Below are positions 6,329-64,000 of a stretch of 64,000 nucleotides of DNA, piece after piece. The stretch is taken from positions 8,780 to 72,779 of the IMG/VR virus record IMGVR_UViG_2639763161_000004. One strand, written 5' to 3'. The DNA comes from a virus (taxonomy: Duplodnaviria; Caudoviricetes). Each line of letters begins with the position of its first letter. Position 1 is the stretch's first letter. A program made the translations under genes and the position numbers. The notes below the pieces were generated by a model, which saw nothing but the letters and a program-made list of their open reading frames with translations, did no database searches and was not told the DNA's origin.

Positions 6329-9427
<3,099 letters not shown>

Positions 9428-9450
9428 GCTTTACCCCTAAATCTTTTTCT

Positions 9451-10641
9451 TTAGTTTTCAGCCTGCTGAAAGCGATACATCGTATTGATTTCATTAACCA
9501 GATACTGCAAAACACGCTTGTCGTCTTCAGTGAGATCGGCCACTTCTTCGCCCGCATGTTTCGAGTGGCTGGAGATATTAATAATCCGAGCCTCATACGG
9601 ATTGGTTTTTCCGTCATTAGTTTTTGGCAAAAGATCACCCCATTTCTTATAGCCAAGAAACGTGGAGGTTTTTTCCAGAATGTTTCTTAAAAAATTAAAG
9701 TGATACTTGCTCAGTTGACCACTCTCGATGGCTTTTTCGAGTTCTGATTTCAAATAAAGATGATATGAGAATGGCGAGTCATTGGGTTGTTGGTCTAACT
9801 GAAATGTGCCGTCGTCAAGCCTAGTCATCCGATACTTATCAAGCCATTTTTTCTTGTAACCACCGTCATCACTGTTGAGCTCATTATGCAGAACGTTATA
9901 AAAAAGCGGATTGTGAGTGGTTATGATGAATTTGACATCAGAATTGTTTGACTTGATCAGTTGGGCCAAATCTACGGCCAATTCAATCAAATGGTTCTCA
10001 TCCAGCGAACTGACCGGGTCGTCAATAAATATATATTCCAATTGGTCAAACGCGTTGGTTTCACGCTCGGCGGGTTCAGCAACATTGAGAATGTCAATCA
10101 CCTGCTCGATCAGCGTATAGAAAATACTCCAAATGAAATTGCTTTCCTCGCCCTTGGAGATTTTTAGATTCCCAGAGTGTTCATCATCACCGCGCTCAAG
10201 GGAAAAAGTCACCTCCGAAAACGCCTTTACAGTGATTTCTTTGTCGTCCTTGCCTTTAACTTTATATTCTTCATTGAATCGTGGGGTTAACTTCTCATTA
10301 GCATAGCGCTGAAAGTTGGTGATAATGTTTCGATCTTGCCCTTGATCTTTCAGTACCCAATCAGTAAACGAATTGGGCTGGATTCTTAGCCTGGGCTCGG
10401 TATCCTGCAACAGGTCGTTGTCCCAAAAGAATAAATCCTCGGTAAAAGCATTGTAATACAGGAACTTGTCTCGTGATAGCTCAGATTGATCGACTTCATC
10501 CTCATCATTCCTGGAGGGAACATGCTGCTTAAATTCTCGCGACAGGCGCGTTTTCCCCGTGCCATTAAAGGCATAGATCAACTGTACCTTTTTATTGGCG
10601 TTTTTAAGCTGCTGGGCGATTTCTGCTAGCTTCTTGCTCAT
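9451..10641 (-). CDS. prrC: PrrC anticodon nuclease (ABC-ATPase + HEPN RNase)
   Basis: [14 protein letters not shown], PrrC box [42 protein letters not shown]...RIINISSH; position between hsdS and hsdR as in E. coli prr. Confidence 0.93.
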
Positions 10642-10642
10642 A

Positions 10643-11950
10643 TCAGGCCACTACCTCTTCAGGCTTGGGAAAACTCAACAGCAAATCGCGGTAATACTCA
10701 TATTGCTTTTGGCGTAATGCGATTTCACGTGGCAAACCTTCGCTGATGGAATTGGTAAGGGCTTCGAATTTGTCTAGAATAGCGACGATGCGGGCTTGTT
10801 CGGCAAGTGATTTTTCAGCGTCATTTGGATACGGAACAGGAATTGCGATTTTAGCAAATCCATTAATCAATAATGTATTGACCTTGGTTCTGGCCACATA
10901 CTTTGCTTTCTCGGCAATGAAAGATGCTGTTTGCATGCAATAGGAAACAAACTTCGGGTTCATTGAATGCCGGAAAGCATAACAATGGTCGTGAATAGCC
11001 ACTTTTTCATCTCCAAGCCAAGCCACGGCTTTACCAACATCCTCGACGGTCTCTCCGACATCAGTTATCACCACGTCTCCTGGTTTCGCATAGCGAAGTG
11101 ACTTTGCCATATCATTTCTGACTTGAGAAAGCGCATGAGTTGTAAAGACGCCGTACCGGGTGTATATCTCACCGTAGTGAATAACACTGATACCATCTCC
11201 GACATAGTCAGCTTTCGTAAAGCGCTTTCCTCGAATAAATTCGCCAATCTCCCCCAAAGCTTTCCACTCTACGTCCCCTTCCTTAAAACTCAACAACTGG
11301 TCACGATAGTAGTTGTATTGTTTTTTACGGGCTGTAAGCTCGGCTGTAAGCTCGGCTGTAAGCTCGGCTGTAAGAGAGGTGAAAGTGTCCAGAGTGCGGA
11401 CGATTTCGGCTTGGATTTCAAGCGATTTTTTTGGGTTTTCCGGGCAGAGGATGGGGAGTAGGATTTTCCTAAAACGTTCTTTTGAAATATTGAAGCGAGT
11501 TACACCACTTGCAGTTTTTGCAATTTCAGATCGCATGAAACGGCTGCGGAATAAATACTTTGAAAATTCAGGAGTCAGCGAAGCATTTTCATTAAATCTG
11601 ACTCCAAACGAAAAACTATTCAGATAAACAGGCTCTTCAGGCTGTATAGTGACAGATGAAGACATGCCTGCTTCCTCAGCGGTTTCAGAAGATCCTGTAA
11701 ATAAAACGTCACCGTATTTAACCTTATGTTGGTTTTCAGCATCAGACATCTTGACGGATTCAAGAGAATTAAAGTCAACATCTATATTGGCAAATATGTT
11801 TTTATATGTAACAAACTTTGCATTGCCATCCTCAAAATCAGATTTACTTTTTCCGTTAAGACCGCCATATATTTCGGCCACTTCTCCCAACGGTTTCCAG
11901 TCAATCTCAACACCATCAAGCAGCTTTTCGATAAAGCTCACCTTGTTCAT
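10643..11950 (-). CDS. hsdS: Type IC specificity subunit HsdS
   Basis: Two TRDs, central TAEL-repeat spacer, [13 protein letters not shown] and [13 protein letters not shown] conserved regions. Confidence 0.96.
11330..11374. repeat. 12-bp tandem repeat GGCTGTAAGCTC x3.75 encoding (TAEL)3 in hsdS
   Basis: Exact copies at 11330, 11342, 11354 and a partial copy at 11366. Confidence 0.95.
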
Positions 11951-13503
11951 GCCTCCAACTCCTTACCTTCGATCTCCGCTACGATAGAATCAATCTCCGT
12001 CCGCAATTGATCGATCTTGGTGCCGATGATTTTCAGCTCGGCATTGAGCGTAGTGATATCGACTACTTCGCGATTGTCCTCAGCTTCGATATAACTACTG
12101 ACCGACAAATTGTAATCATTGCCCTTAATATCTTCAAAGTTCACCGATTTGGCAAAATGATCAACCTCTGCCTTGCTATCAAACACCTGCATGATTTTCT
12201 CAATGTGCTTATCTGTGAGCGAGTTGTTATTGGTGTCCTTTTTGAACAGCCCGCTGGCATCGATAAATTGAGTGGACATGTCGGTTTTATGTTTGGATAG
12301 CACCAGAATATTGACGGCGATAGTGGTACCAAAAAACAGATTGGGTGCAAGTAAAATCACGGTTTCGACGTAATTATTGTCCACGAGATATTGCCTAATT
12401 TTCTTCTCGGCACCGCCCCGGTAAAAAATGCCGGGGAAGCAGACAATGGCTGCGCGCCCTTTGCTGGAAAGGTAACTGAGCGCATGCAGCACAAAGGCAA
12501 AGTCGGCTTTTGATTTGGGCGCTAAAACTCCTGCCGGGGCAAAGCGGTCATCGTTGATCAGCGTGGGATCGTCTGAGCCTATCCATTTCACCGAGTAAGG
12601 TGGGTTGGAGACGATAGCATCAAAAGGTTTGTCATCGCCAAAATGCGGATTACGCAGCGTATCACCGAGCTGGATATTGAACTTGTCGTAGTTGATGTTG
12701 TGCAAGAACATGTTCATCCGCGCCAAGTTGTAAGTGGTGTGGTTGAGTTCCTGCCCCCAAAAACCGTCTTCAATAATGTGGGCGTCAAAGTGTTTTTTGG
12801 CTTGCAGCAGCAGTGAGCCAGAACCACACGCCGGGTCATAAATCTTGTTAACGCTGGTTTGCTTGTGCATGGCAAGCTGTGCAATCAGCTTGGACACGTG
12901 TTGCGGGGTAAAAAACTCACCGCCGGATTTACCTGCGTTGGCTGCGTAGTTGGAGATAAGAAACTCGTAAGCATCACCGAAAAGATCGATGTGGCTACCC
13001 TCAAAATCGCCAAAATCTAATTCTGCCACCCCTTTGAGCACTGCTGCCAGACGTGTATTTTTGTCTTTTACCGTATTGCCGAGCCGGTTGCTGGTGGTGT
13101 CAAAATCAGCAAACAATCCCTTGATATCGTTCTCTGAAGGGTAACCGCTGGCTGACATTTCAATAGCCGAGAAGATGTCAGCCAAATCGGTATTTAATTT
13201 TTCGTTAGTACTGGCACCTGCGGCGATGTTAACAAACAAATCATCTGGGTAAATGAAATAGCCTTTAGTTTTAATGGCGTCGTCTTTGATTTCCGGGGTA
13301 ATGACGCTCCGGGGGAGTGTTGCATACTTGACACTGTCATCACCGCCTTCAATGTAATTAGCAAAGTTTTCGCTGATGAAGCGGTAAAACAGAGCGCCTA
13401 AAACGTATTGCTTAAAATCCCAGCCATCCACTGCACCGCGTACATCGTTGGCAATCTGCCAGATCTGGCGTTGCAGTGCGGCGCGTTGTTGGGTGCTTGT
13501 CAT
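11947..13503 (-). CDS. hsdM: Type I N6-adenine methyltransferase HsdM
   Basis: [14 protein letters not shown] (motif I), NPPY (motif IV). Confidence 0.97.
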
Positions 13504-13664
13504 GGTAAAACTCCGGTTTTAATACATTTTTGATAGCCAAAGGCCTATTATAAGTCCTGCATTATAACGATTAGGGGCGTTCTAATCATTTCGAATTGTC
13601 ACTAAAATGGGTGAATCGTAGCGGTAATGGTGATTGATTAATATTTAGACTACACACGGATAAC

Positions 13665-14344
13665 GATTTGCCCAGTATTCCCCCAAACGGCCGACTGAAA
13701 GGCTGGTGCACCTTGCATAATATATTCTGATCGCTGTTGGCCTTGCCAGACAGGAAAGGAAGCGCTTTAGGACTCGTAAACGCATATGTTCATCATGCTG
13801 AGGTTGCCGACGACGCAGAAACGTCATCTGTTTCCCGAACGTTAGCTTCGGACATCATCTGGCTGCAGGAACAAGCGAAACGTTACGGGCCATCAGCACA
13901 GCTCTACAGCAAGGGGAGTACATCTGGCTTGCCAGGTCTGGCCAAATCACGCAGTAGAGCATGCTGTTTCGCTTTACGTGCACGATCGAAACCCTTCGGG
14001 CAATGGACTTGATCGACTGGCTGGTGTCCGCAAAAGAATGGAAAGAAAAATCTAAACTGGCAGGTAATGTCTGTGCGATCTACACGCCGAAAGACGAACT
14101 GCACCAGGTGTTCAGTGGCACGGGTGAACTCATCAGGCCGATGAAGCTACGGCTTACCGGCGATATCAGCGGTATTCCTGCGCTGACCGCCCAGTGCAAT
14201 CTGAACGCTTGCCTGATGACGAGGGATTTTTCGTTTATCGGCTGTTACCTGACCCGTTCCGTGAGCATAAGAGGCTCATGCCCAACGAGGTTTCGGATGA
14301 AAAAAGAATATAGCGATAAAAGGACGCCCGGCCACATAGGCTGA
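13665..14344 (+). pseudogene. DUF2913-like island gene, frameshifted
   Basis: Fragments LVHLA*..IAVGLARQ, RTLASDIIWL and LFRFTCTIETL in different frames. Confidence 0.55.
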
Positions 14345-14365
14345 GCGTCCAAGGATTACGCCATT

Positions 14366-15547
14366 TTATTTACCACGGCTCAGACTATCTATATGGTCAG
14401 CATACCATTGCATCATCTCGCGGCGGTTTTCCAAATATTGCGCGTGGTTATATGTGCCGCGGATACTGTTTTTATCCACGTGAGCGAGCTGCATCTCTAT
14501 CCAGGCTGTATTAAACCCCTGCTCATGCAGAATGGTACTCATGGTGTGTCGGAATCCGTGACCTGTAGCCTTCCCGTGATATCCAATTCGCTTTAACACC
14601 TGATTGATGCTCGCTTCACTCATTGGTTTAGTGATGTCATTGCGACCCGGAAATACCAGCGAAAAACGCCCTGTAGCCGCTTGAATTTCGCGAAGTGCTT
14701 CAACCACCTGAGTTGACAACGGCACCATATGTGGTCGCCGCATCTTCATGCGTTCTTTAGGCACTTCCCAAATCGCTTTATCAAGATCAAACTCTTTCCA
14801 CTCCGCCAGACGAAGCTCAATGGTTCGCACGCCAGTCAGCATCAGAATACGTGTGGCAAGCCGTGTAATCGGACTGCCACTGTAATTCTCCAATGCTTGC
14901 AAGAATGGTGGCAGCTCTTCAGACAGTAAATGAGGGAAGTGTTTCGGCTTCGGTGTAGCCAATGCACTGGCAAGATCCGCAACCGGGTTGATCTCCGCCC
15001 TGCCCGTCACGATGGCATAAGTGAACACCTGCTTACAGGCTTGCCGAATTTTACGCAGTTTATCCAATACTCCGCGCGTCTCTAACTTGCGCAGCGTCGT
15101 GAGCATCTCTAGCGGTTTTATTTCAGCTATAGGACGCTTACCAAGATCCGGAAAAATGTCATTTTCAAACGCTTCTATCAGATCATCAGCATAACCCTTT
15201 GACCACCCTGGACGCTTGTACTCATGCCATTCCAGGGCAAGTGCTTTGAAGTTGTTCTCAATAGCAATTTTACGCGTTTGCTTATCAACTTTCTTCTGCT
15301 CACTCGGATCGATGCCGTTAGCAATCTTCCGTTTAGCTTCATCACGACGTTGTCTGGCTTCAGAAAGCGAGATCTCTGGATAAACACCTAACGCCAGGGT
15401 TTTCTGTTTGCCATCAAAGCGATATTGCACTCGCCAGTATTTAGAGCCGTTCGGATGCACCATTAAATGCATTCCTTCCCCATCGGTAAGCTTAAAGGCT
15501 TTATCGGTGGGTTTCGCACTTCTGACTTTTACATCTGTTAGCGCCAT
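14366..15547 (-). CDS. int: P4-family tyrosine integrase
   Basis: MALTDVKVR..LTDGEGMHLMVHPNGSKYW arm-binding domain; TGVR, HGFR, LAH, YNHAQY catalytic motifs. Confidence 0.96.
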   Translation of the reverse strand: MALTDVKVRSAKPTDKAFKLTDGEGMHLMVHPNGSKYWRVQYRFDGKQKTLALGVYPEISLSEARQRRDEAKRKIANGIDPSEQKKVDKQTRKIAIENNFKALALEWHEYKRPGWSKGYADDLIEAFENDIFPDLGKRPIAEIKPLEMLTTLRKLETRGVLDKLRKIRQACKQVFTYAIVTGRAEINPVADLASALATPKPKHFPHLLSEELPPFLQALENYSGSPITRLATRILMLTGVRTIELRLAEWKEFDLDKAIWEVPKERMKMRRPHMVPLSTQVVEALREIQAATGRFSLVFPGRNDITKPMSEASINQVLKRIGYHGKATGHGFRHTMSTILHEQGFNTAWIEMQLAHVDKNSIRGTYNHAQYLENRREMMQWYADHIDSLSRGK

Positions 15548-44210: not shown

Positions 44211-44624
44211 TCATTTACTCATATGCTTAGAAATTATTAATTTCCTTATCTCTTGATAATTCGGGTCCAGTGGTTCCATGGAAACCTTTTTGTCAAGCTC
44301 TTCTAGCTCTGGCGTTGCCTTTGCTAGCGCATCTATATATTCGCTTGTGTTCAGATCAGGTAATGGCTTTAGTCTTGAAAGTTTTTTAAGGTTATCTTCT
44401 TCAATTAAAACGGATGCTTCTCTTTGAATTTTTTTTACCGCCGAAATATACATTTCTTCATGATTAGCTTTCATCCAATCATAAAAGCCCTTATCTGCGG
44501 CCTTTCTTTTCAACTCTCTGGCACTATATCGCCTGTTACCCATAACAACCTCGTCTAGTTGCTCGTCATGTTTCGCCATGGCAGGCAGTGACGAATCTGC
44601 TTTTCGGCTGGCCGGCCTAGCCAT
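44211..44624 (-). CDS. Hypothetical moron protein between Q and lysis genes
   Basis: AT-rich ORF with own terminator; start uncertain. Confidence 0.65.
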   Translation of the reverse strand: MARPASRKADSSLPAMAKHDEQLDEVVMGNRRYSARELKRKAADKGFYDWMKANHEEMYISAVKKIQREASVLIEEDNLKKLSRLKPLPDLNTSEYIDALAKATPELEELDKKVSMEPLDPNYQEIRKLIISKHMSK

Positions 44625-44869
44625 GGCTAACTCTAATATCTGCTCTGACGCTATTGCGATTAACTGCCCGGCACGTCTGCCCAGAGCGAATTCACCAAAA
44701 CAAAAACGCCCTGCCAGGCGGTGAACTCTGGAGGGCGCTTAATTGTCAGTCATTCGTTGCGGGGGAAGGACTAATTAGCTTATCTGCTCAACTACTACTG
44801 CCGGGAGCATACCACAAATCTATCAGTCTCATTTCGCGTTTTCAACATATTTTTCGCACAATGCAACAT

Positions 44870-52462: not shown

Positions 52463-52528
52463 ATAACTTTGGTTGTTATTATGCAAACACTTTAGTTGTT
52501 TGACGGTGTATTACTGTGGTTGTATTTT
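52463..52528. promoter_or_regulatory. oR operators and pRM (leaderless cI mRNA)
   Basis: 14-bp sites ending GTTGT at 52463, 52486, 52510; TTGACG-17-TATTTT ending 7 nt before the cI ATG. Confidence 0.75.
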
Positions 52529-52535
52529 GCGCGGC

Positions 52536-53261
52536 ATGAAAATGACACTTGCAGAACGCTTAAAGCTCGCAATGCGCGAGGCGGGAGTAACACAAGCTGG
52601 CCTGGCTGAACGGGTTGGCGTGTCTCAGGCCGCCATTCAAAAATTAACATCAGGTAAAGCCTTAAGCTCAACTAAGTTGATCAAGATCGCCGAATCATTA
52701 GGAGTAAGTGCTACATGGTTGGCAGATGAGACCGGTCCGATGTATGTTAGTCGAAGCGGTGAGCATCACCCTGCATCGACAATACCTTCAGAGGATAAAT
52801 GGATCACGGTTGACCCTTGGGACACTTCTACACCTTTAGAAGATGACGAGGTTGAGGTTCCATTTCTCAAAGATATTGAATTCGCATGTGGTGATGGCTC
52901 GATTTCAGACGAGGACTACAACGGATTCATGCTACGTTTTTCAAAAGCCACCATGAGAAGAAGCGGGGTCAATAGCGATGGCTCCGGTGTCCTGTGCTTT
53001 CCCGCGCATGGAAACAGCATGGAGCCAGTAATACCCGAAGGAACTACAGTAGCTGTTAACTGTTTGGACAAAAAAGTTGTTGATGGCAAGCTGTACGCCA
53101 TTAGCCAGGGCGGATGGAAAAGATTAAAGCTTCTTTACCGTACAGGCCCCGAGAAATTAGCTATCAGAAGCTACAACTCAGATGAGTACCCCGATGAAGA
53201 AGTAGACATGAAAGATGTAGAGATCATCGGAAGAGTATTCTGGTCTTCAACCCTCTGGTAA
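52536..53261 (+). CDS. cI: CI repressor (HTH + S24 peptidase)
   Basis: TLAERLK..TQAGLAERVGVSQAAIQK; ACG cleavage region; GNSMEP; IIGRV. Confidence 0.95.
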   Translation: MKMTLAERLKLAMREAGVTQAGLAERVGVSQAAIQKLTSGKALSSTKLIKIAESLGVSATWLADETGPMYVSRSGEHHPASTIPSEDKWITVDPWDTSTPLEDDEVEVPFLKDIEFACGDGSISDEDYNGFMLRFSKATMRRSGVNSDGSGVLCFPAHGNSMEPVIPEGTTVAVNCLDKKVVDGKLYAISQGGWKRLKLLYRTGPEKLAIRSYNSDEYPDEEVDMKDVEIIGRVFWSSTLW

Positions 53262-53278
53262 ACCACCTCAAATAAATG

Positions 53279-53300
53279 ACCCGCTCCGGCGGGTTTTTTA
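53279..53300 (+). terminator. Terminator after cI
   Basis: ACCCGC-tccg-GCGGGT-TTTTT. Confidence 0.8.
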
Positions 53301-53339: not shown

Positions 53340-53413
53340 ACAACCACAAAACAACCATATCGCATTTATTTACAACCAAAGTTGTTGACATGATTACAAC
53401 CATAGTTTTAAAT
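53340..53413 (+). promoter_or_regulatory. oL operators and pL
   Basis: ACAACCAAAGTTGT at 53372, ACAACCATAGTTTT at 53396, further ACAACC half-sites; TTGACA at 53385. Confidence 0.75.
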
Positions 53414-53453
53414 AGGTTCATCAGCAGGACGCTGGCGAAACATGAAACGGATT

Positions 53454-53491
53454 TGCTCTTTAACAATTGAGAATGGGGATGATTCGTCCCC
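53454..53491 (+). promoter_or_regulatory. nutL (boxA + boxB)
   Basis: TGCTCTTTAACAA then GGGGATGATTCGTCCCC, nearly identical to nutR boxB. Confidence 0.85.
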
Positions 53492-53512
53492 GCCAAAGTG
53501 CAGTTGGCTTTG

Positions 53513-53596
53513 GGGTGTGTAGCTCAGCAGGTAGAGCGGATTCGTAGGCCCAGCCATGGAATCGCGTCACCGGTTCAATTCCGGTCACACCACCCA
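53513..53596 (+). ncRNA. tRNA-like cloverleaf with enlarged anticodon arm in the N leader
   Basis: TA-GCTC-AGCAGGTA-GAGC D arm; GATTC/GAATC stem around 15 nt; ACCGG-TTCAATT-CCGGT T arm; GGTGTG/CACACC acceptor; 3' CCA. Confidence 0.8.
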
Positions 53597-53617
53597 AGTC
53601 AATTACCGGAGGTAACT

Positions 53618-53860
53618 ATGAAAGCAAGAGAGCTACGCAAGCGCCTTCGGGCAGAAGCTCATCGTGAGCAGCTGGACTATGCAGGCCGTATTGACCGCGC
53701 ATACAAGAAGCTCAGCACCGGATGCAGCCTGACAGTATCCCGCGCAATCAACTCCCCTTCTCTGCGTAGTAAGCATGAGAGTGGGTCAGCTTGTTTGCCA
53801 GAGGTTGCGAAATACGCAGCTGGGTTTCGGGAATCTAAAGACATTGTGACAGCGAGATAA
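53618..53860 (+). CDS. N: N antiterminator
   Basis: GGAGG RBS; Arg-rich KARELRKRLR; C-terminal GSACLPEVAKYAAGFRESKDIVTAR like P22-type N. Confidence 0.88.
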   Translation: MKARELRKRLRAEAHREQLDYAGRIDRAYKKLSTGCSLTVSRAINSPSLRSKHESGSACLPEVAKYAAGFRESKDIVTAR

Positions 53861-60370: not shown

Positions 60371-60578
60371 AAACGCCATCCGCGCCGTAGCCCGCAAGTG
60401 CAGACAGGAAATCATCAAAGCCACTGACGGCAATCCTAAAGCAGACCACGACGCCATCACCACCGCCATCCTCGATAAACACGCCAAATCAATCACCGCA
60501 CTGCCGCCGAATACATTCACAGCAAAGCTGTGGCTGAGCTATTTCGTGCGTCAGGTAGACAGGGAGATAAGACAGTGA
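60354..60578 (+). CDS. Hypothetical phage protein
   Basis: Coupled ORF. Confidence 0.65.
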   Translation: MTPETENAIRAVARKCRQEIIKATDGNPKADHDAITTAILDKHAKSITALPPNTFTAKLWLSYFVRQVDREIRQ

Positions 60579-61870
60579 AATACGGATCTGTTTGCAGCGG
60601 AATAGAGGCTGCCAGCGTAGCCTGGGAGCCGCTCGGGCTTGAGCCTGCATGGTTCTCTCAGTTTGACCCCGAACACAACTATAAAAAAGGGACTGACTTC
60701 CCCTCTGCCGTTCTCGCCCATCACTGGCCGCACGTTTCCAATCTTGGAGATATGACAAAGCTCGCAATCATGGTGAGGTCTGGTGATGTGGAAGCGCCCG
60801 ACATCCTTGTTGGCGGTACGCCGTGCCAGGCATTTTCTGTAGCTGGAGCACGCAAGGGTCTTGAAGATGATCGAGGCCAGTTAACAATTTCATACGGAGA
60901 ATTAGCAGATGCAATCGATGATCAGCGTATCAGAGAAGGAAAGCAGCCATCAATTATCGTCTGGGAGAACGTGCCAGGCGTCCTGTCGTCCAAAGATAAC
61001 GCCTTCGGTGCGTTTCTTGGCCTCCTCGCCGGTGAAGACTGTGAGCTGGAACCACCAGGGAAAAAATGGTCGAACGCTGGTTATGTGTCTGGACCCAAAA
61101 GGTCAATCGCGTGGCGGACCCTTGATGCCCAATATTTCGGAGTGGCCCAACGACGCCGACGTGTGTTTGTTGTCGCAAGTGCTAGAGCCGATTTCGATCC
61201 CGCAAAAGTTCTTTTTGAGCGAGAAGGCGTGCGCCGGGATATTGCGCCGAGCAGAAGCACGGAAAAGAACGTTGCCGCCCTTACTGCAAATGGCGTTGGA
61301 ACGTGTGGCGCAGATGACAACCAAGCCCAGGCTGGACATCTGATCCCCATTTCTACAAGTACATGGCCCGTATCTCACTGCCTTAATGCTGGAGGTATGG
61401 CCCGCATCGACTATGAAACAGAGACGATGGTTGTTCACGGCACGCAGGAACATGACAGACCCATTGCTTGTTATCCCATCAATACTCAGCTAGCTTTGCG
61501 TGGATCTGAAACAAGCAATTCAACACGGGAAGGTATAGGCTTAGGTGATGATGGTGATCCAATTTTTACATTATTGGCAGCACATCATCATGCAGTAGCA
61601 ACTAACATGCAGGTTCGTCGCCTTACCCCCATTGAGTGCGAGAGGCTCCAGGGGTTCCCGGATAACCACACCCTTATACCCACTGAGAAGCGCAAACAGA
61701 TTACAGCAGAAGAGTATGCTTATTATCGCCATCACAACCCTGAAATGACAGCGGAACAGGCCTACAAACTGGCGGCAGATGGACCTCGGTACAAAGCGAT
61801 CGGCAACTCCATGGCTGTTCCGGTAATGGCCTGGATTGGAAAGCGAATCATTTCTCACCTGAATAAATAA
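60575..61870 (+). CDS. C5-cytosine DNA methyltransferase
   Basis: SVCSGI (I), GGTPCQ (IV), WENVPG (VI), QRRRRVF (VIII), RRLTPIECERLQGFPD (IX), KAIGNS (X); GGGAG RBS + GTG. Confidence 0.93.
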   Translation: MKYGSVCSGIEAASVAWEPLGLEPAWFSQFDPEHNYKKGTDFPSAVLAHHWPHVSNLGDMTKLAIMVRSGDVEAPDILVGGTPCQAFSVAGARKGLEDDRGQLTISYGELADAIDDQRIREGKQPSIIVWENVPGVLSSKDNAFGAFLGLLAGEDCELEPPGKKWSNAGYVSGPKRSIAWRTLDAQYFGVAQRRRRVFVVASARADFDPAKVLFEREGVRRDIAPSRSTEKNVAALTANGVGTCGADDNQAQAGHLIPISTSTWPVSHCLNAGGMARIDYETETMVVHGTQEHDRPIACYPINTQLALRGSETSNSTREGIGLGDDGDPIFTLLAAHHHAVATNMQVRRLTPIECERLQGFPDNHTLIPTEKRKQITAEEYAYYRHHNPEMTAEQAYKLAADGPRYKAIGNSMAVPVMAWIGKRIISHLNK

Positions 61871-61915
61871 CCCCCACCACATTAACCTTTATCGCGCTCT
61901 GCGTGAGGAGTTGTT

Positions 61916-62512
61916 ATGTCCGGAAAGTACCGGCTCATTTATGCTGACCCGCCTTGGTCATACCGCGACAAGGCCAATGATGGCAGCCGAGGCGCATGCC
62001 ATAAATACCCGGTTATGACGCTGCAGGATATCTGCAGGTTGCCGGTGTGGTCACTCGCCGATCCCGAATCCTGCCTGCTTGCTATGTGGTGGGTGCCGAC
62101 TCAGCCGTTGGAGGCGTTGAAGGTTGTCGAGGCGTGGGGCTTTCGGTTTATGACAATGAAAGGTTTTACCTGGCACAAGACGAACAAGCGCAAAGGGAAC
62201 AGCGCAATCGGAATGGGCCACATGACGCGTGCAAACAGCGAGGATTGTCTGTTTGCGGTGAAAGGACGTCTGCCAGCACGCATGGATGCCTCAATATGTC
62301 AGCACATCAGCGCGCCACGCATGGAGCATAGCGCTAAACCACAGGTTATCCGTGACAGCCTGGTGAAGCTCATCGGCGACGTGCCGCGCATTGAGCTATT
62401 CGCCCGTACCGCCGATCAGGGTTGGGATTCGTGGGGCAACGAGCTTGATACCAGTGTTAATTTAACCGAGGGAGGTTTTCGGCGAGTCATTCGCAAGAGC
62501 ACAGCAGCATGA
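61916..62512 (+). CDS. MT-A70-family adenine DNA methyltransferase
   Basis: IYADPPW, HSAKP, RIELFAR, WGNE. Confidence 0.92.
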   Translation: MSGKYRLIYADPPWSYRDKANDGSRGACHKYPVMTLQDICRLPVWSLADPESCLLAMWWVPTQPLEALKVVEAWGFRFMTMKGFTWHKTNKRKGNSAIGMGHMTRANSEDCLFAVKGRLPARMDASICQHISAPRMEHSAKPQVIRDSLVKLIGDVPRIELFARTADQGWDSWGNELDTSVNLTEGGFRRVIRKSTAA

Positions 62513-62612
62513 ACATCTCCATCACCCCCGACCCGGGCGACATTCTCACTCTCGCCCTTCTCATCGCTCTCATTTACGCATTCAAACACAGCAAGCCACC
62601 TGAGGAGTAGAT

Positions 62613-62960
62613 ATGGAAAACGACGAGCCATTGACGCTTGCCGAGGCCGCGCTTTACCTGAAGGTTTCAGCAAGGACAGTAAGCAACCTGATTCGCCGCG
62701 GAGAGTTACCGGCGCGCAGAACAGGTGGTGACAGCGGCAAGTACCTTGTGCTTCGCTCCGCCTGTATTGATTATGTTCGCAATCCATCACAGAATCGCCC
62801 GGCGAGCATGGGTGATGGCACAAACGGAGGTCCATCATGTCAATCACCCTCAGAGGCGGGGTATGGCACTGTCATTTCTTTACCCCGAATGGCAAAAGAG
62901 TTAGGCGATCGCTTAACACAGCGGACAAAAAGCAAGCGCAGGAGCTGCACGACAGGCTGA
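62613..62960 (+). CDS. xis: Excisionase-like HTH protein
   Basis: [28 protein letters not shown]; overlaps int. Confidence 0.75.
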
Positions 62961-64000
62961 AGGCGGAGGCATGGCGGGTTGAGGAGTTAGGCGACCTGCC
63001 TGTGAGGTCTTTCGAAGAGGCCTGCATGCGCTGGCTGGATGAGAAAGAGCATAAGCGAAGCCTGGATGATGACAAGGTAAAGATTGAGTTCTTTCTTTGT
63101 CATTTCTCAGGGCGGGATATTGCCTCTATTACCGGCGAGGAGGTGCAGAAGATTGTTGGCAGGATGATCAACCGCAACCATCGCCGTAAATGGGAGATTC
63201 AGCGCGACGCGGCAATAAGGGACAGTAAACCCGTGCCTGAATACAAAGACCGGCCAGTCAGCGCAGGAACCAAAAGCCATTACCTTTCTTTTATGCGATC
63301 ACTTCTTCGTGCCGCGGCTAACGAATGGGGATGGATAAAGACCGCGCCAGTCATCAAGACCAAGAAGCCCGTAAGCAAAAGGATTCGCTGGCTGACCAGA
63401 GAGGAAGCAAACAGGCTCATCGACGGCATGCCAGACAGCATCAGGCCAGTGGTTGTTTTTGCGCTGTCCACCGGGCTACGCCGTTCAAACATTCTGGATC
63501 TGGAGTGGACTCAGGTTGATATGCAAAGGAAGGTGGCATGGATAAATCCGGAGAACGCCAAAGCGGGCAAGGCTATTGGCGTGGCGCTGAATGATACCGC
63601 ATGCCGGGTGCTGAAGGAGCAGATTGGGAAGCATTCACGATGGGTTTTCGTTCACACAAAAGAGGCAACCAGACCAGACGGCACCAAGACGCCATCAGTC
63701 AGGAAAATGCGCTGTGATGATAACACGGCGTGGCGGATAGGGCTCAAGCGGGCAGGCATTGAGGATTTCCGTTTTCATGACTTACGGCATACCTGGGCAA
63801 GCTGGCTGATTCAGGCAGGTGTTCCGCTTTCGGCATTGCAGGAAATGGGAGGATGGGAAAGCATCGAAATGGTACGCAGGTATGCACACCTGGCACCTAA
63901 CCACCTGACTGAACATGCGCGCAAAATTGACTCACTTTTGGGTGAAAACGACACAAATACGACACAAGGAGGAAATCAGGTAGGCTTGAAACTTGCTTAA
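62837..64000 (+). CDS. int: Tyrosine integrase, P22/DLP12 IntD-like
   Basis: [47 protein letters not shown]. Confidence 0.97.

What the first reader, a model, noticed from the sequence alone, without database searches (positions are those of the whole stretch)
53501..53620. tRNA-shaped RNA with an enlarged anticodon arm built into the RNase III stem of the pL/N leader
Seen: between nutL and the N start codon, 53513-53596 folds as a near-canonical cloverleaf. It has U8-A9, a GCTC/GAGC D stem with GG in the loop, a 5-nt variable loop, an ACCGG-TTCAATT-CCGGT T arm and a terminal CCA. The anticodon stem GATTC/GAATC encloses 15 nt (GTAGGCCCAGCCATG, able to extend as GGC-CCA-GCC) instead of 7, there is no U33, and position 1:72 is G:A, so it should not decode. 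The acceptor stem continues outward as AGTTGGCTTTGG/CCCAAGTCAATT. Known: this flank matches the lambda N-leader RNase III stem and boxC (GGCTTTGGGGTGTG...CACACCACCAAAGC), whose cleavage relieves N translational autorepression. Inference: a tRNA body has replaced the variable top of that stem, so RNase III and/or RNase P processing would release a tRNA mimic as one of the first products of infection or induction. Possible roles are a decoy for tRNA-targeting defences (a PrrC lies in the neighbouring island), a ligand for tRNA-binding host proteins, or an alternative processing switch for N. I do not know a description of this arrangement.
Basis: partly seen in the sequence, partly recalled or inferred. 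Interest (0 to 1): 0.88.

Follow-up and report, generated by a model that had tools for sequence, protein, structure and literature searches.

The report
tRNA-shaped cap on phage N-leader hairpin
A non-decoding, tRNA-shaped RNA sits at the tip of the processing hairpin that lambda-type phages place between their early-left promoter and the N gene, and it belongs to a small, undescribed family of such caps whose anticodon arm is free to vary.

Summary
Window 53513-53596(+) is called a tRNA by ARAGORN and passes Rfam's tRNA threshold (37 bits, cut-off 29). It has a 15-nt anticodon loop and a G:A at 1:72. It sits on a long stem whose base matches the lambda N-leader stem (boxC).

It is not a one-off. 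I found four sequence classes at the head of early-left operons:
- A: 15-nt loop (this window; Salmonella and E. coli P22-like prophages).
- B: 7-nt loop with G33 (Hafnia phages), also found without the long stem in phages with no N-like gene seen behind it.
- C: 3-bp mini-arm.
- D: about 65-nt insert.

All keep the acceptor, D and T arms and the elbow nucleotides; only the anticodon region varies. Near-identical flanks carry different tops, so the top behaves as a swappable cassette. Lambda, P22 and phi80 tops are not tRNA-like.

Best reading (about 0.5): a leader-trailer helix like that of rrn operons (boxA, boxC, enclosed stable RNA). RNase III and/or RNase P would cut out the tRNA-like RNA and uncouple nutL from the N ribosome site. 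No RNA ends were seen.

The PrrC-decoy idea has no support. The scan met the E. coli form before on other DNA. GenBank rows call it tRNA-Gly or tRNA-OTHER; my searches found no paper describing it.

The parts
52536..53261 (+). cI-like repressor gene (LexA/S24-type) that ends just before the early-left promoter
   Evidence: ORF 52473-53261. The start at the internal MKM and the S24-type motif are my reading of that translation. Same position as the 'LexA family protein' and 'CI-like repressor' genes in relatives. No Pfam run on it.
53278..53295 (+). terminator-like hairpin plus T run after the repressor gene
53385..53432 (+). early-left promoter region: TTGACA 53385-90, and ATCAGCAGGACGC 53420-32, which is the start of the pL transcript in lambda and P22
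   Evidence: Sequence. The same ATCAGCAGGACGC is in lambda and at the annotated 5' nt of the P22 early-left RNA. The consensus promoter scan found no site, so the promoter is inferred by homology.
53454..53491 (+). nutL: boxA TGCTCTTTAACAA (53454-66) and a boxB-like hairpin GGGGA-TGATTCG-TCCCC (53475-91)
   Evidence: Sequence. boxA matches the rrn boxA quoted in PMC2724277. L191 has a compensated version of the hairpin (GAGAC-TGATTCG-GTCTC).
53502..53512 (+). 5' arm of the outer (leader-trailer) stem. It holds the boxC-like GGCTTTGGGG that runs on into the acceptor stem.
   Evidence: Fold; lambda comparison
53513..53596 (+). tRNA-shaped RNA, class A: 6-bp acceptor plus G:A at 1:72, canonical D and T arms, 5-bp anticodon stem around a 15-nt loop
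   Evidence: model R1 103.1 bits; pair counts
53593..53604 (+). 3' arm of the outer stem (CCCAAGTCAATT). It overlaps the apparent CCA.
53608..53860 (+). Shine-Dalgarno GGAGG (53608-12) and the N-like antiterminator gene (53618-53860, 80 aa)
   Evidence: Pfam PF25694 N_peptide, E 1.5e-10

Best explanation
The element is a non-decoding, tRNA-derived structural RNA. It is the enclosed 'payload' of a leader-trailer helix at the head of the early-left operon.

Proposed order of events:
1. RNA polymerase leaves pL and transcribes boxA and boxB (nutL).
2. It transcribes the GU-rich boxC strand, then the tRNA-like body, which folds as it is made.
3. It transcribes the trailer strand, which pairs back with boxC just upstream of the N ribosome-binding site.
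4. Host stable-RNA processing enzymes then cut at the base of the body. RNase III would cut in the long helix, as in lambda. RNase P would cut at the 5' end of the acceptor stem, because the body keeps the acceptor/T-arm stack and the D/T-loop elbow that RNase P reads.
5. Cutting separates the nutL-bound antitermination complex from the N message, allowing N translation as described for lambda. It also frees a compact, probably stable tRNA-shaped RNA.

The anticodon arm has no role in this, which would explain why it varies so freely.

Shown here: the anatomy, its conservation, the compensated stems, the cassette-like exchange of tops, and the position at the head of pL operons. Inferred: the cuts, the stability of the product and the effect on N.
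For: Anatomy and detection.

Four classes keep the acceptor, D and T arms and the elbow bases U8, A14, G18, G19, T54-T55-C56 and A58, except L033, whose T loop is changed. The anticodon region is a 15-nt loop, a 7-nt G33 loop, a 3-bp hairpin or an ~65-nt insert.

Pair counts:
- 17 distinct sequences: 96.7% of 333 cells paired, 5 of 21 pairs with changes on both sides.
- 23 distinct sequences: 96.0% of 447 cells paired, 11 of 21 pairs with changes on both sides.
- In both, 0 of 500 shuffles reach the observed percentage paired or covariation score, and slid structures pair in only 28-46% of cells.

Within 18 P22-type loci, all 5 variable sites of the 84 nt lie in the anticodon-loop extension or at T-loop position 68; none lies in the other 79 positions. 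In four RNA-run contigs no difference is listed between 6410 and 6619, a span that holds the element, while each contig has 15-19 differences in 0.66-1.1 kb.

Same outer stem and single bulged A as lambda.

Cassette behaviour.

Head-of-pL position even where no N-like gene or long stem is seen.

rrn parallel, from passages of PMC10250234: boxC lies in the 5' strand of the leader-trailer helix, the RNase III site overlaps it, and boxA lies 18-19 nt upstream.

A leader hairpin can yield a small RNA: P22B, 96 nt, ends 16 nt before the gene 24 start (PMC13397905 passages).

RNA-library contigs run from about the pL start through the element into gene 24. One of them begins 1 nt inside the homology-inferred +1.
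Against: No RNA end, cut or product was observed. One search used assembled contigs, which cannot show ends, and DNA may be present in RNA libraries.

The 5' leader is paired with the trailer, which should hinder RNase P until the helix is opened (my knowledge, not tested).

Position 1:72 is mismatched in all 9 distinct class A sequences. No CCA register is conserved.

If only cutting mattered, an acceptor/T-arm minihelix would do, yet the D arm and an anticodon-side arm persist.

Most leaders manage without a tRNA shape. Only 2 of 5426 E. coli genomes hold most of the E. coli-type stretch with its class A element.

The covariation counts are weaker than they look:
- The number of pairs with double changes is no higher than in shuffles: 5 against a mean of 4.1 (171 of 500 shuffles reach it), and 11 against 10.1 (189 of 500).
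- The count of further pair types is below the shuffles (500 and 499 of 500 reach it).
- Alignment A2 was fitted to the model.
- The classes may be separate tRNA captures, which would fold as cloverleaves anyway.
Confidence: 0.5

Rival explanations
1. The released tRNA-shaped RNA is the point. It would be a trans-acting early product that mimics tRNA to occupy a tRNA-binding host or defence protein (a decoy or sponge), or to be recognised by tRNA enzymes. The hairpin would be only its delivery vehicle.
For: The module also occurs without the long stem and with no N-like gene seen behind it, still as the first element of the early-left transcript (13 of 15 class B loci lack the stem; gene context read in L013 and yong2 only).

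The full elbow and a D arm are kept, which is more than a cutting signal needs.

It would be among the first RNAs made.

A PrrC anticodon nuclease lies in the same record.
Against: The part that anticodon nucleases read is exactly the part that is not conserved: 15-nt loop, G33 loop, 3-bp hairpin or 65-nt insert.

No 7-nt loop with U33 occurs in any of the 23 distinct sequences.

No co-occurrence with any defence system was tested.

The element is rare, so it is not a general need.

My searches found no paper on such a decoy in lambdoid leaders.
Confidence: 0.2
2. It is a passenger: a tRNA gene captured into the variable top by recombination at GU-rich boxC-like sequence. It is kept only because any stable, compact fold serves as a top, and it is slowly decaying, starting with the anticodon arm.
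For: Tops are extremely diverse: 23 distinct tops of 66-218 nt among 46 closed leaders.

There is a graded series. Classes C and D have degenerate middle parts. The 218-nt tops (8 loci) keep the class B/D T stem and acceptor strand but have a 10-nt loop in place of the T loop.

Single sequences carry breaks: L011 at 27:43, L034 in the T stem, L033 in the T loop, L021 and L025 in the mini-stem.

The acceptor 5' strands all read as shifted boxC.
Against: Between classes the stems differ by compensated changes, while the tertiary-contact bases stay fixed.

Within 18 close relatives no stem or elbow site varies.

A neutral relic should lose the elbow as fast as the anticodon loop.

Among the species-representative genomes (the collection's description gives 185,579 species), the pattern hit only two unrelated true tRNAs, so no recent donor is seen.
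Confidence: 0.2
3. It is a cis-acting transcription element. The fold would either shield the long untranslated leader from Rho or act on RNA polymerase like the HK022 put RNA, especially in relatives with no N-like gene seen behind it.
For: It lies directly behind a boxA-like CGCTCTTTA or TGCTCTTTA in 6 class B loci (L013-L016, L028, L036). It occupies the place where HK022 has putL (recalled; only the abstract of PMC9378689 was seen, in the listing). The leader is untranslated for about 200 nt.
Against: The window's phage has a full nutL and an N gene, so it needs no put-like RNA. A cloverleaf is unlike the put RNA as I recall it (a recalled shape; no model was run). Any structure would shield from Rho, which does not explain the conserved elbow bases.
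Confidence: 0.1

Closest known systems
Lambda N-leader RNase III-sensitive hairpin, between nutL and the N ribosome site. The papers of Steege 1987, Kameyama 1991 and Wilson 2002 are recalled; Wilson 2002 was seen only as a reference and could not be opened.
   Same: Same place between nutL and the Shine-Dalgarno sequence. Same outer stem sequence with one bulged A (GGCTTTGGGG.../...CC-A-CC.AAG). Same short distance to the ribosome site.
   Different: Lambda's top is a ~108-nt branched hairpin with no match to Rfam tRNA or model R1. Here the top is a cloverleaf that passes the Rfam tRNA threshold.
rrn operon leader-trailer helix with boxA and boxC around 16S rRNA (PMC10250234 and PMC4807359, passages read)
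   Same: The order is boxA, then a GU-rich boxC in the 5' strand of a long helix that closes around a stable-RNA-like body. In rrn the RNase III site overlaps boxC. The Nus-tethered looping model would apply equally.
   Different: The payload is ~84 nt rather than 1.5 kb. A boxB hairpin and an N protein are present. A protein-coding gene follows directly. No processing data exist for this element.
Non-tRNA substrates of RNase P from phages: C4 RNA of P1/P7 and M3 RNA of phi80 (listed in PMC11143913, passage read; the original papers were not held)
   Same: Phage early or regulatory transcripts that RNase P recognises through a tRNA-like top half.
   Different: Cleavage of the present element is untested. 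I could not find where M3 RNA maps. The phi80 N-leader top does not match model R1.
True tRNA genes of P22-like and lambdoid phages in the late operon (phage L, Sf6; PMC8022706 passages)
   Same: tRNA genes co-transcribed with phage mRNA.
   Different: Those have normal anticodon loops, plausible decoding roles and a late-operon position. This one is early-left, cannot decode and is boxed in by a processing stem. That paper states that P22 carries no tRNA genes.

Membership tests
tRNA (Rfam RF00005) | Score at or above the family's gathering threshold, with all four arms aligned | tested here: met
   37 bits against 29, model positions 1-71 of 71. ARAGORN also calls it.
tRNA (functional, decoding) | 7-nt anticodon loop with U33 and a purine at 37 | tested here: not met
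   The window has a 15-nt loop. Relatives have 7-nt loops with G33, a 3-bp mini-arm or a ~65-nt insert. None of the 23 distinct sequences has a 7-nt loop with U at position 33.
tRNA (functional, decoding) | Paired 1:72 and a free 3' end with discriminator plus CCA | tested here: not met
   1:72 is G:A or C:A in all 9 distinct class A sequences. The 3' end is paired into the outer stem. The CCA register is not conserved.
tRNA (functional, decoding) | Aminoacylation and use on the ribosome | not testable with these tools
   Needs acid gels or tRNA sequencing.
Lambda-type N-leader processing hairpin | Lies between nutL (boxA, boxB) and the N ribosome site, closed by the boxC-containing stem with a bulged A | tested here: met
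   N gene confirmed by Pfam N_peptide
Lambda-type N-leader processing hairpin | Cut by RNase III, with an effect on N translation | not testable with these tools
   Only assembled RNA-library contigs were on hand.
RNase P substrate (tRNA-like top half) | Coaxial acceptor/T-arm stack of about 12 bp, plus a T-loop/D-loop elbow (G18 G19; T54 T55 C56 A58) | tested here: met
   6 bp plus one mismatch plus 5 bp. The elbow bases are invariant or nearly so in 17 and in 23 sequences. That these are the determinants is recalled knowledge.
RNase P substrate (tRNA-like top half) | Actual cleavage at position +1 | not testable with these tools
   No raw reads or assays.
rrn-type leader-trailer helix | boxA upstream of a GU-rich boxC that forms the 5' strand of a long helix enclosing a structured RNA | tested here: met
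   boxA 53454-66, boxC strand 53502-19, trailer 53586-604. The definition comes from PMC10250234. The boxA-to-boxC spacing is longer here because a boxB hairpin lies between them.
Decoy for the PrrC anticodon nuclease | Presents the anticodon stem-loop that PrrC cuts (that of tRNA-Lys; recalled) | tested here: not met
   The element has no 7-nt anticodon loop, and that region is the least conserved part of the family. PrrC itself is present in the record.

The most novel reading that the evidence does not exclude
Two linked claims.

First, the boxC stem and the variable hairpin of lambdoid N leaders in general descend from an embedded tRNA. The early-left operon would then be a miniature rrn-like 'stable RNA first' operon.

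Second, in the phages that still keep the cloverleaf, the excised tRNA-shaped RNA is a working early product in its own right: a non-decoding tRNA mimic that engages a tRNA-binding host or defence factor, or routes leader processing through RNase P and so frees N expression from RNase III control.

The graded series fits this: classes A, B, C and D, the 218-nt tops that keep the class B/D T stem, and the acceptor strands that all read as shifted boxC.
Probability: 0.22. Interest if true: 0.8.

Novelty: new variant of a known kind. Interest (0 to 1): 0.58.

Why it matters
The pL-nutL-N leader is one of the most studied regulatory regions in biology, yet my searches found no paper that notes a tRNA-shaped form of its hairpin. 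Database records label it tRNA-Gly or tRNA-OTHER, or leave it blank.

- It gives a natural set of swapped tops in identical flanks. With these one can test what the leader hairpin is for, and whether RNase P can stand in for RNase III in controlling N.
- It ties phage boxC to the rrn leader-trailer helix in a concrete, testable way.
- It warns annotators that these 'tRNA' calls in prophage immunity regions are not decoding tRNAs.
- If the excised RNA acts in trans, it would be a new kind of early phage RNA.

Tried and rejected
Host tRNA donor. One scan of the species-representative genomes with a pattern spanning the D arm to the T arm gave only two unrelated true tRNAs, Gly-UCC in a Herbaspirillum MAG and Pro-UGG in an Aminicenantes MAG. 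No donor was found. The window's own record is a 72,779-base provirus with no host tRNAs to compare.

Lambda, P22 and phi80 leaders as hidden tRNAs. Lambda and P22 gave no Rfam tRNA match and no R1 match at E up to 1. phi80 gave only R1 scores below 5 bits with the filters off. P22's top folds as a stem with three hairpins; I make nothing of that.

Prevalence. Class C was not found in 5,426 complete E. coli genomes. Among the phage records, only Pocitis76's own class B element and leader flanks matched the class C query.

Sequencing runs. 20 holders, of which 6 are RNA runs from 3 studies. The four I laid are assembled contigs. They show no ends, joints or depth steps that could speak to processing. 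The lack of cover upstream of about 6320 goes with a different immunity region: X19's contig runs on into unlike sequence there. It is not a finding. Contig ends at 6336, 6377 and 6422 differ between runs and are at most a hint.

Promoter scan. No consensus site was found. pL is placed by homology only.

PrrC link. PrrC's presence is confirmed, but I saw nothing that connects it to the element.

Literature. Searches found no description of a tRNA-like RNA in an N leader. The Pas sRNA preprint's 'tRNA-like' refers to integration sites. The phage L paper's refers to attP.
Full report
WHAT IS THERE

The window's record is a 72,779-base provirus. Around the finding the gene order is that of a lambdoid immunity region read leftward:
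- dnaB-like, O-like, cII-like and cro-like ORFs on the minus strand (my reading of the translations and of their order in relatives);
- a cI-like gene ending at 53261, followed by a terminator-like hairpin at 53278-95;
- TTGACA at 53385-90, and ATCAGCAGGACGC at 53420-32. The latter also stands in lambda's pL region and begins at the annotated 5' nt of the P22 early-left RNA;
- boxA TGCTCTTTAACAA (53454-66), which matches the rrn boxA quoted in PMC2724277;
- a boxB-like hairpin (53475-91);
- the structure in question;
- GGAGG (53608-12) and an 80-aa ORF (53618-53860) that matches Pfam N_peptide at E 1.5e-10.

ARAGORN finds one tRNA in the window, at 53513-53596. Rfam's tRNA model scores it 37 bits against a gathering score of 29, with all 71 model positions aligned, 15 nt where the model has 7, and a non-standard 1:72 pair. 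The minimum-energy fold of 53501-53612 is the cloverleaf on a 17-bp outer stem with one bulged A and one mismatch (z -2.85, 2 of 200 shuffles fold as well).

Lambda's leader has the same outer stem, GGCTTTGGGGTGTGTG...CACACACCACCAAAGC, with the same bulged A. Its top, however, matches neither Rfam tRNA nor my model R1.

The second loop base is a U. And the in-register CCA exists only in this window; relatives have CCAA, CCTA, GCAA, GTAA or GCTC at that place.

IT IS A FAMILY

BLAST against phage records found the element in two named phages. In Hafnia phage Pocitis76 it is annotated tRNA-Gly, directly before 'antitermination protein N'. In Salmonella phage P6 it is unannotated. Two E. coli chromosomes carry it as PGAP 'tRNA-OTHER'.

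A motif scan of IMG/VR gave 35 stretches. Together with the named records and the window that makes 41 elements, 17 of them distinct.

- Class A: 26 elements, 9 distinct. It has the 15-nt loop and always sits in an N-type leader. Most have P22-type nutL. L011 has a lambda-like boxB and L027 another nut type.
- Class B: 15 elements, 8 distinct. It has a 7-nt loop with G at position 33 (CGCCCGA, TGCCCGT or CGCCAGA).
- Class C: found by a second, looser scan (70 stretches, 48 rows examined). It comprises 8 loci: L061, L168, L181, L190, L191, L203, L205 and L208. The acceptor is GGTGTGG/CCACACC, the D stem has 3 bp, the anticodon arm is only GGC-(5-6 nt)-GCC, and the T arm TCTGG-TTCGATT-CCAGA is canonical.
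- Class D: L181 carries two modules in tandem. The first is class C. The second has a class-B-like acceptor and T arm and about 65 nt inserted in the anticodon region.

WHAT IS CONSERVED AND WHAT IS NOT

On the MAFFT alignment of 17 distinct A and B sequences:
- 96.7% of 333 cells pair;
- 5 of 21 pairs change on both sides (3:70, 4:69, 49:65, 51:63 and 52:62 in tRNA numbering);
- the D stem never varies;
- slid structures pair in 28-46% of cells.

On the model-fitted alignment of 23 distinct A, B and C sequences, 96.0% of 447 cells pair and 11 of 21 pairs change on both sides.

In both, 0 of 500 shuffles reach the observed percentage paired or covariation score.

Several points weaken this.
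- The count of pairs with double changes is no better than in shuffles: 171 and 189 of 500 shuffles reach it.
- The count of further pair types is below the shuffles.
- A2 leans towards the model.
- The tool warns that relatedness alone can beat the shuffles.
- The classes could be separate tRNA captures.

Other evidence is more telling. The invariant columns are the tertiary-contact bases (U8, A14, G15, G18, G19, A21, G26, the GCGTC variable loop in A and B, and G53-T54-T55-C56), with A58 nearly so. Among 18 close P22-type loci, all 5 variable sites of the 84 nt fall in the anticodon-loop extension (36, 38, 39, 43) or at T-loop position 68. By comparison there are 5 of 100 variable sites upstream and 17 of 99 in the gene 24 start.

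The anticodon side is the free part. Even the GGC/GCC mini-stem inside the class A loop is broken in L021 and L025. Position 44 (A or G) can pair with U33 in every class A variant, which suggests a longer, bulged arm rather than an open 15-nt loop. That is my reading.

THE TOP IS A CASSETTE ON A CONSTANT BASE

In E. coli, 266 of 5426 genomes share the P22-type nutL with L003, but the match stops at about the first base of the element. Only 2 genomes continue through it.

Of these, 46 have the closing strand, carrying 23 distinct tops of 66-218 nt. Only L061 gets an ARAGORN call.

Exchange of tops within the same flanks is seen three times:
- L061, L191 and L205 have flanks nearly identical to the window's but carry class C.
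- P22 and phage P6 share flanks but not tops.
- phi80 and L208/L168/L203 share flanks but not tops.

The bulged A of the base stem falls at tRNA position 72 in class A, 73 in class C and 75 in class B. The body is therefore docked at slightly different depths, and the CCA-like letters belong to the base stem.

The 218-nt tops (8 loci) begin like class D and end with the class B/D T stem and acceptor strand around a 10-nt loop. This hints at descent between tRNA-like and non-tRNA tops.

NOT ONLY AN N-LEADER PART

Thirteen of the 15 class B elements lack the long stem. In the two contexts I read (L013 and Hafnia phage yong2), the element follows a cI-like gene and precedes the first early-left genes, which are not N-like (a hypothetical protein, then a YfdQ family protein). 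I ran no N model on these loci. In 6 loci it lies 3 nt behind a boxA-like CGCTCTTTA or TGCTCTTTA. In L208 the class C element, here with its stem, also heads the early-left genes behind a cI-like gene. The constant feature is therefore 'first structured RNA of the early-left transcript'.

HOW IT MOST LIKELY WORKS

The layout is boxA, then a GU-rich boxC as the 5' strand of a long helix, an enclosed compact RNA, and the trailer strand. This is the layout of the rrn leader-trailer helix. There, boxC sits in the 5' strand, the RNase III site overlaps it, and the Nus complex is thought to hold the leader near the RNA exit channel until the trailer emerges (PMC10250234 and PMC4807359, passages).

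For lambda, RNase III cutting of the leader hairpin relieves N-mediated repression of N translation. This is recalled; Wilson et al. 2002 was seen only as a citation and could not be opened.

Here the lambda-equivalent part of the stem coincides with the 5' and 3' borders of the body. The body also keeps what RNase P is known to read (recalled knowledge). I therefore propose excision by RNase III and/or RNase P, which would uncouple nutL from the N ribosome site and free a tRNA-shaped RNA.

Two indirect supports:
- In P22, whose top is not tRNA-like, a 96-nt RNA from this hairpin accumulates in infected cells (642 reads per million) and in vesicles (216). Its 3' end lies 16 nt before the gene 24 start (PMC13397905, passages and table).
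- For the Salmonella-type class A element, contigs of four RNA-library runs from three studies run from about the pL start through the element into gene 24. One begins 1 nt inside the homology-inferred +1, and no difference from L031 is listed within the element.

None of this shows a cut. My confidence is about 0.5.

RIVALS

- Trans-acting tRNA mimic or decoy (0.2). It is favoured by the stem-less occurrences with no N-like gene seen behind them and by the kept D arm. It is weakened because the anticodon region, which anticodon nucleases read, is the variable part. The PrrC in the neighbouring type I restriction island is real (6329-13503), but nothing I saw links it to the element.
- Decaying passenger tRNA serving as 'any stable top' (0.2). 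It is favoured by the diversity of tops and the graded series. It is weakened by the fixed elbow bases and compensated stems.
- Cis-acting Rho shield or put-like element (0.1).

KNOWN OR NEW

Database rows call it tRNA-Gly or tRNA-OTHER, or leave it blank. The phage L paper states that P22 carries no tRNA genes and describes tRNAs only in the late operon. Nine full-text searches found no description; supplements were closed.

This scan met the E. coli form twice before on other DNA. Those follow-ups reached the 'tRNA-shaped cap on the N-leader hairpin' reading, with which I agree.

- classes B, C and D;
- the occurrences without the stem and with no N-like gene seen behind them;
- the cassette exchanges around this window's own flanks;
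- the pair counts;
- the shifting register of the bulged A;
- the rrn parallel.

I rate it a new variant of a known kind and of moderate to high interest. It is a real, conserved and ill-annotated RNA in a classic regulatory region, and its function is still open.

Noticed in passing
window 6329-15547: A type I restriction-modification island: hsdR 6329-9427, hsdS 10643-11950 and hsdM 11947-13503. A 396-aa PrrC anticodon nuclease gene lies between hsdR and hsdS (9451-10641, PADLOC PrrC E 2.4e-149). A tyrosine integrase follows at 14366-15547.
   Followed up: partly
window 44561-44627 (-): Rfam int-alpA RNA (RF02996), 47 bits against a gathering score of 35.8. It is the only other Rfam match in the window.
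   Followed up: no
L181 8704-8774 and 8924-9053: Two tRNA-like modules in tandem in one phi80-type early-left leader, each in its own copy of the boxC stem. The second has about 65 nt inserted where the anticodon arm should be, and folds with D-like and T arms intact (-61.7 kcal/mol, z -4.16).
   Followed up: partly
L043 1176-1305 (-), phage P22: The P22 gene 24 leader folds as a long stem closing three hairpins (a four-way junction) but matches no tRNA model. A 2026 paper reports a 96-nt small RNA (P22B) from exactly this hairpin, also found in outer-membrane vesicles.
   Followed up: partly
L003 2610-2738 (E. coli EC20 prophage): In the E. coli form a small ORF (it begins MLEIITNPILGGAIITFAIG) is inserted between the tRNA-like hairpin and the N gene. 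PGAP does not annotate it. Earlier notes of this scan call it a 39-aa membrane peptide.
   Followed up: no
L066, L077, L078, L096, L132, L146, L156, L164 (218-nt tops): These non-tRNA leader tops begin like the class D module (GTGAAGC...). They end with the class B/D T stem and acceptor strand (GCTGG...CCAGCCACCACACC) around a 10-nt loop instead of a T loop. They look like derived forms of a tRNA-like top.
   Followed up: no
window 60530-64000: A C-5 cytosine DNA methylase (60530-61870, Pfam E 8.4e-35) and a second tyrosine integrase (62837 to the window end, E 3e-40) at the far end of the early-left operon.
   Followed up: no
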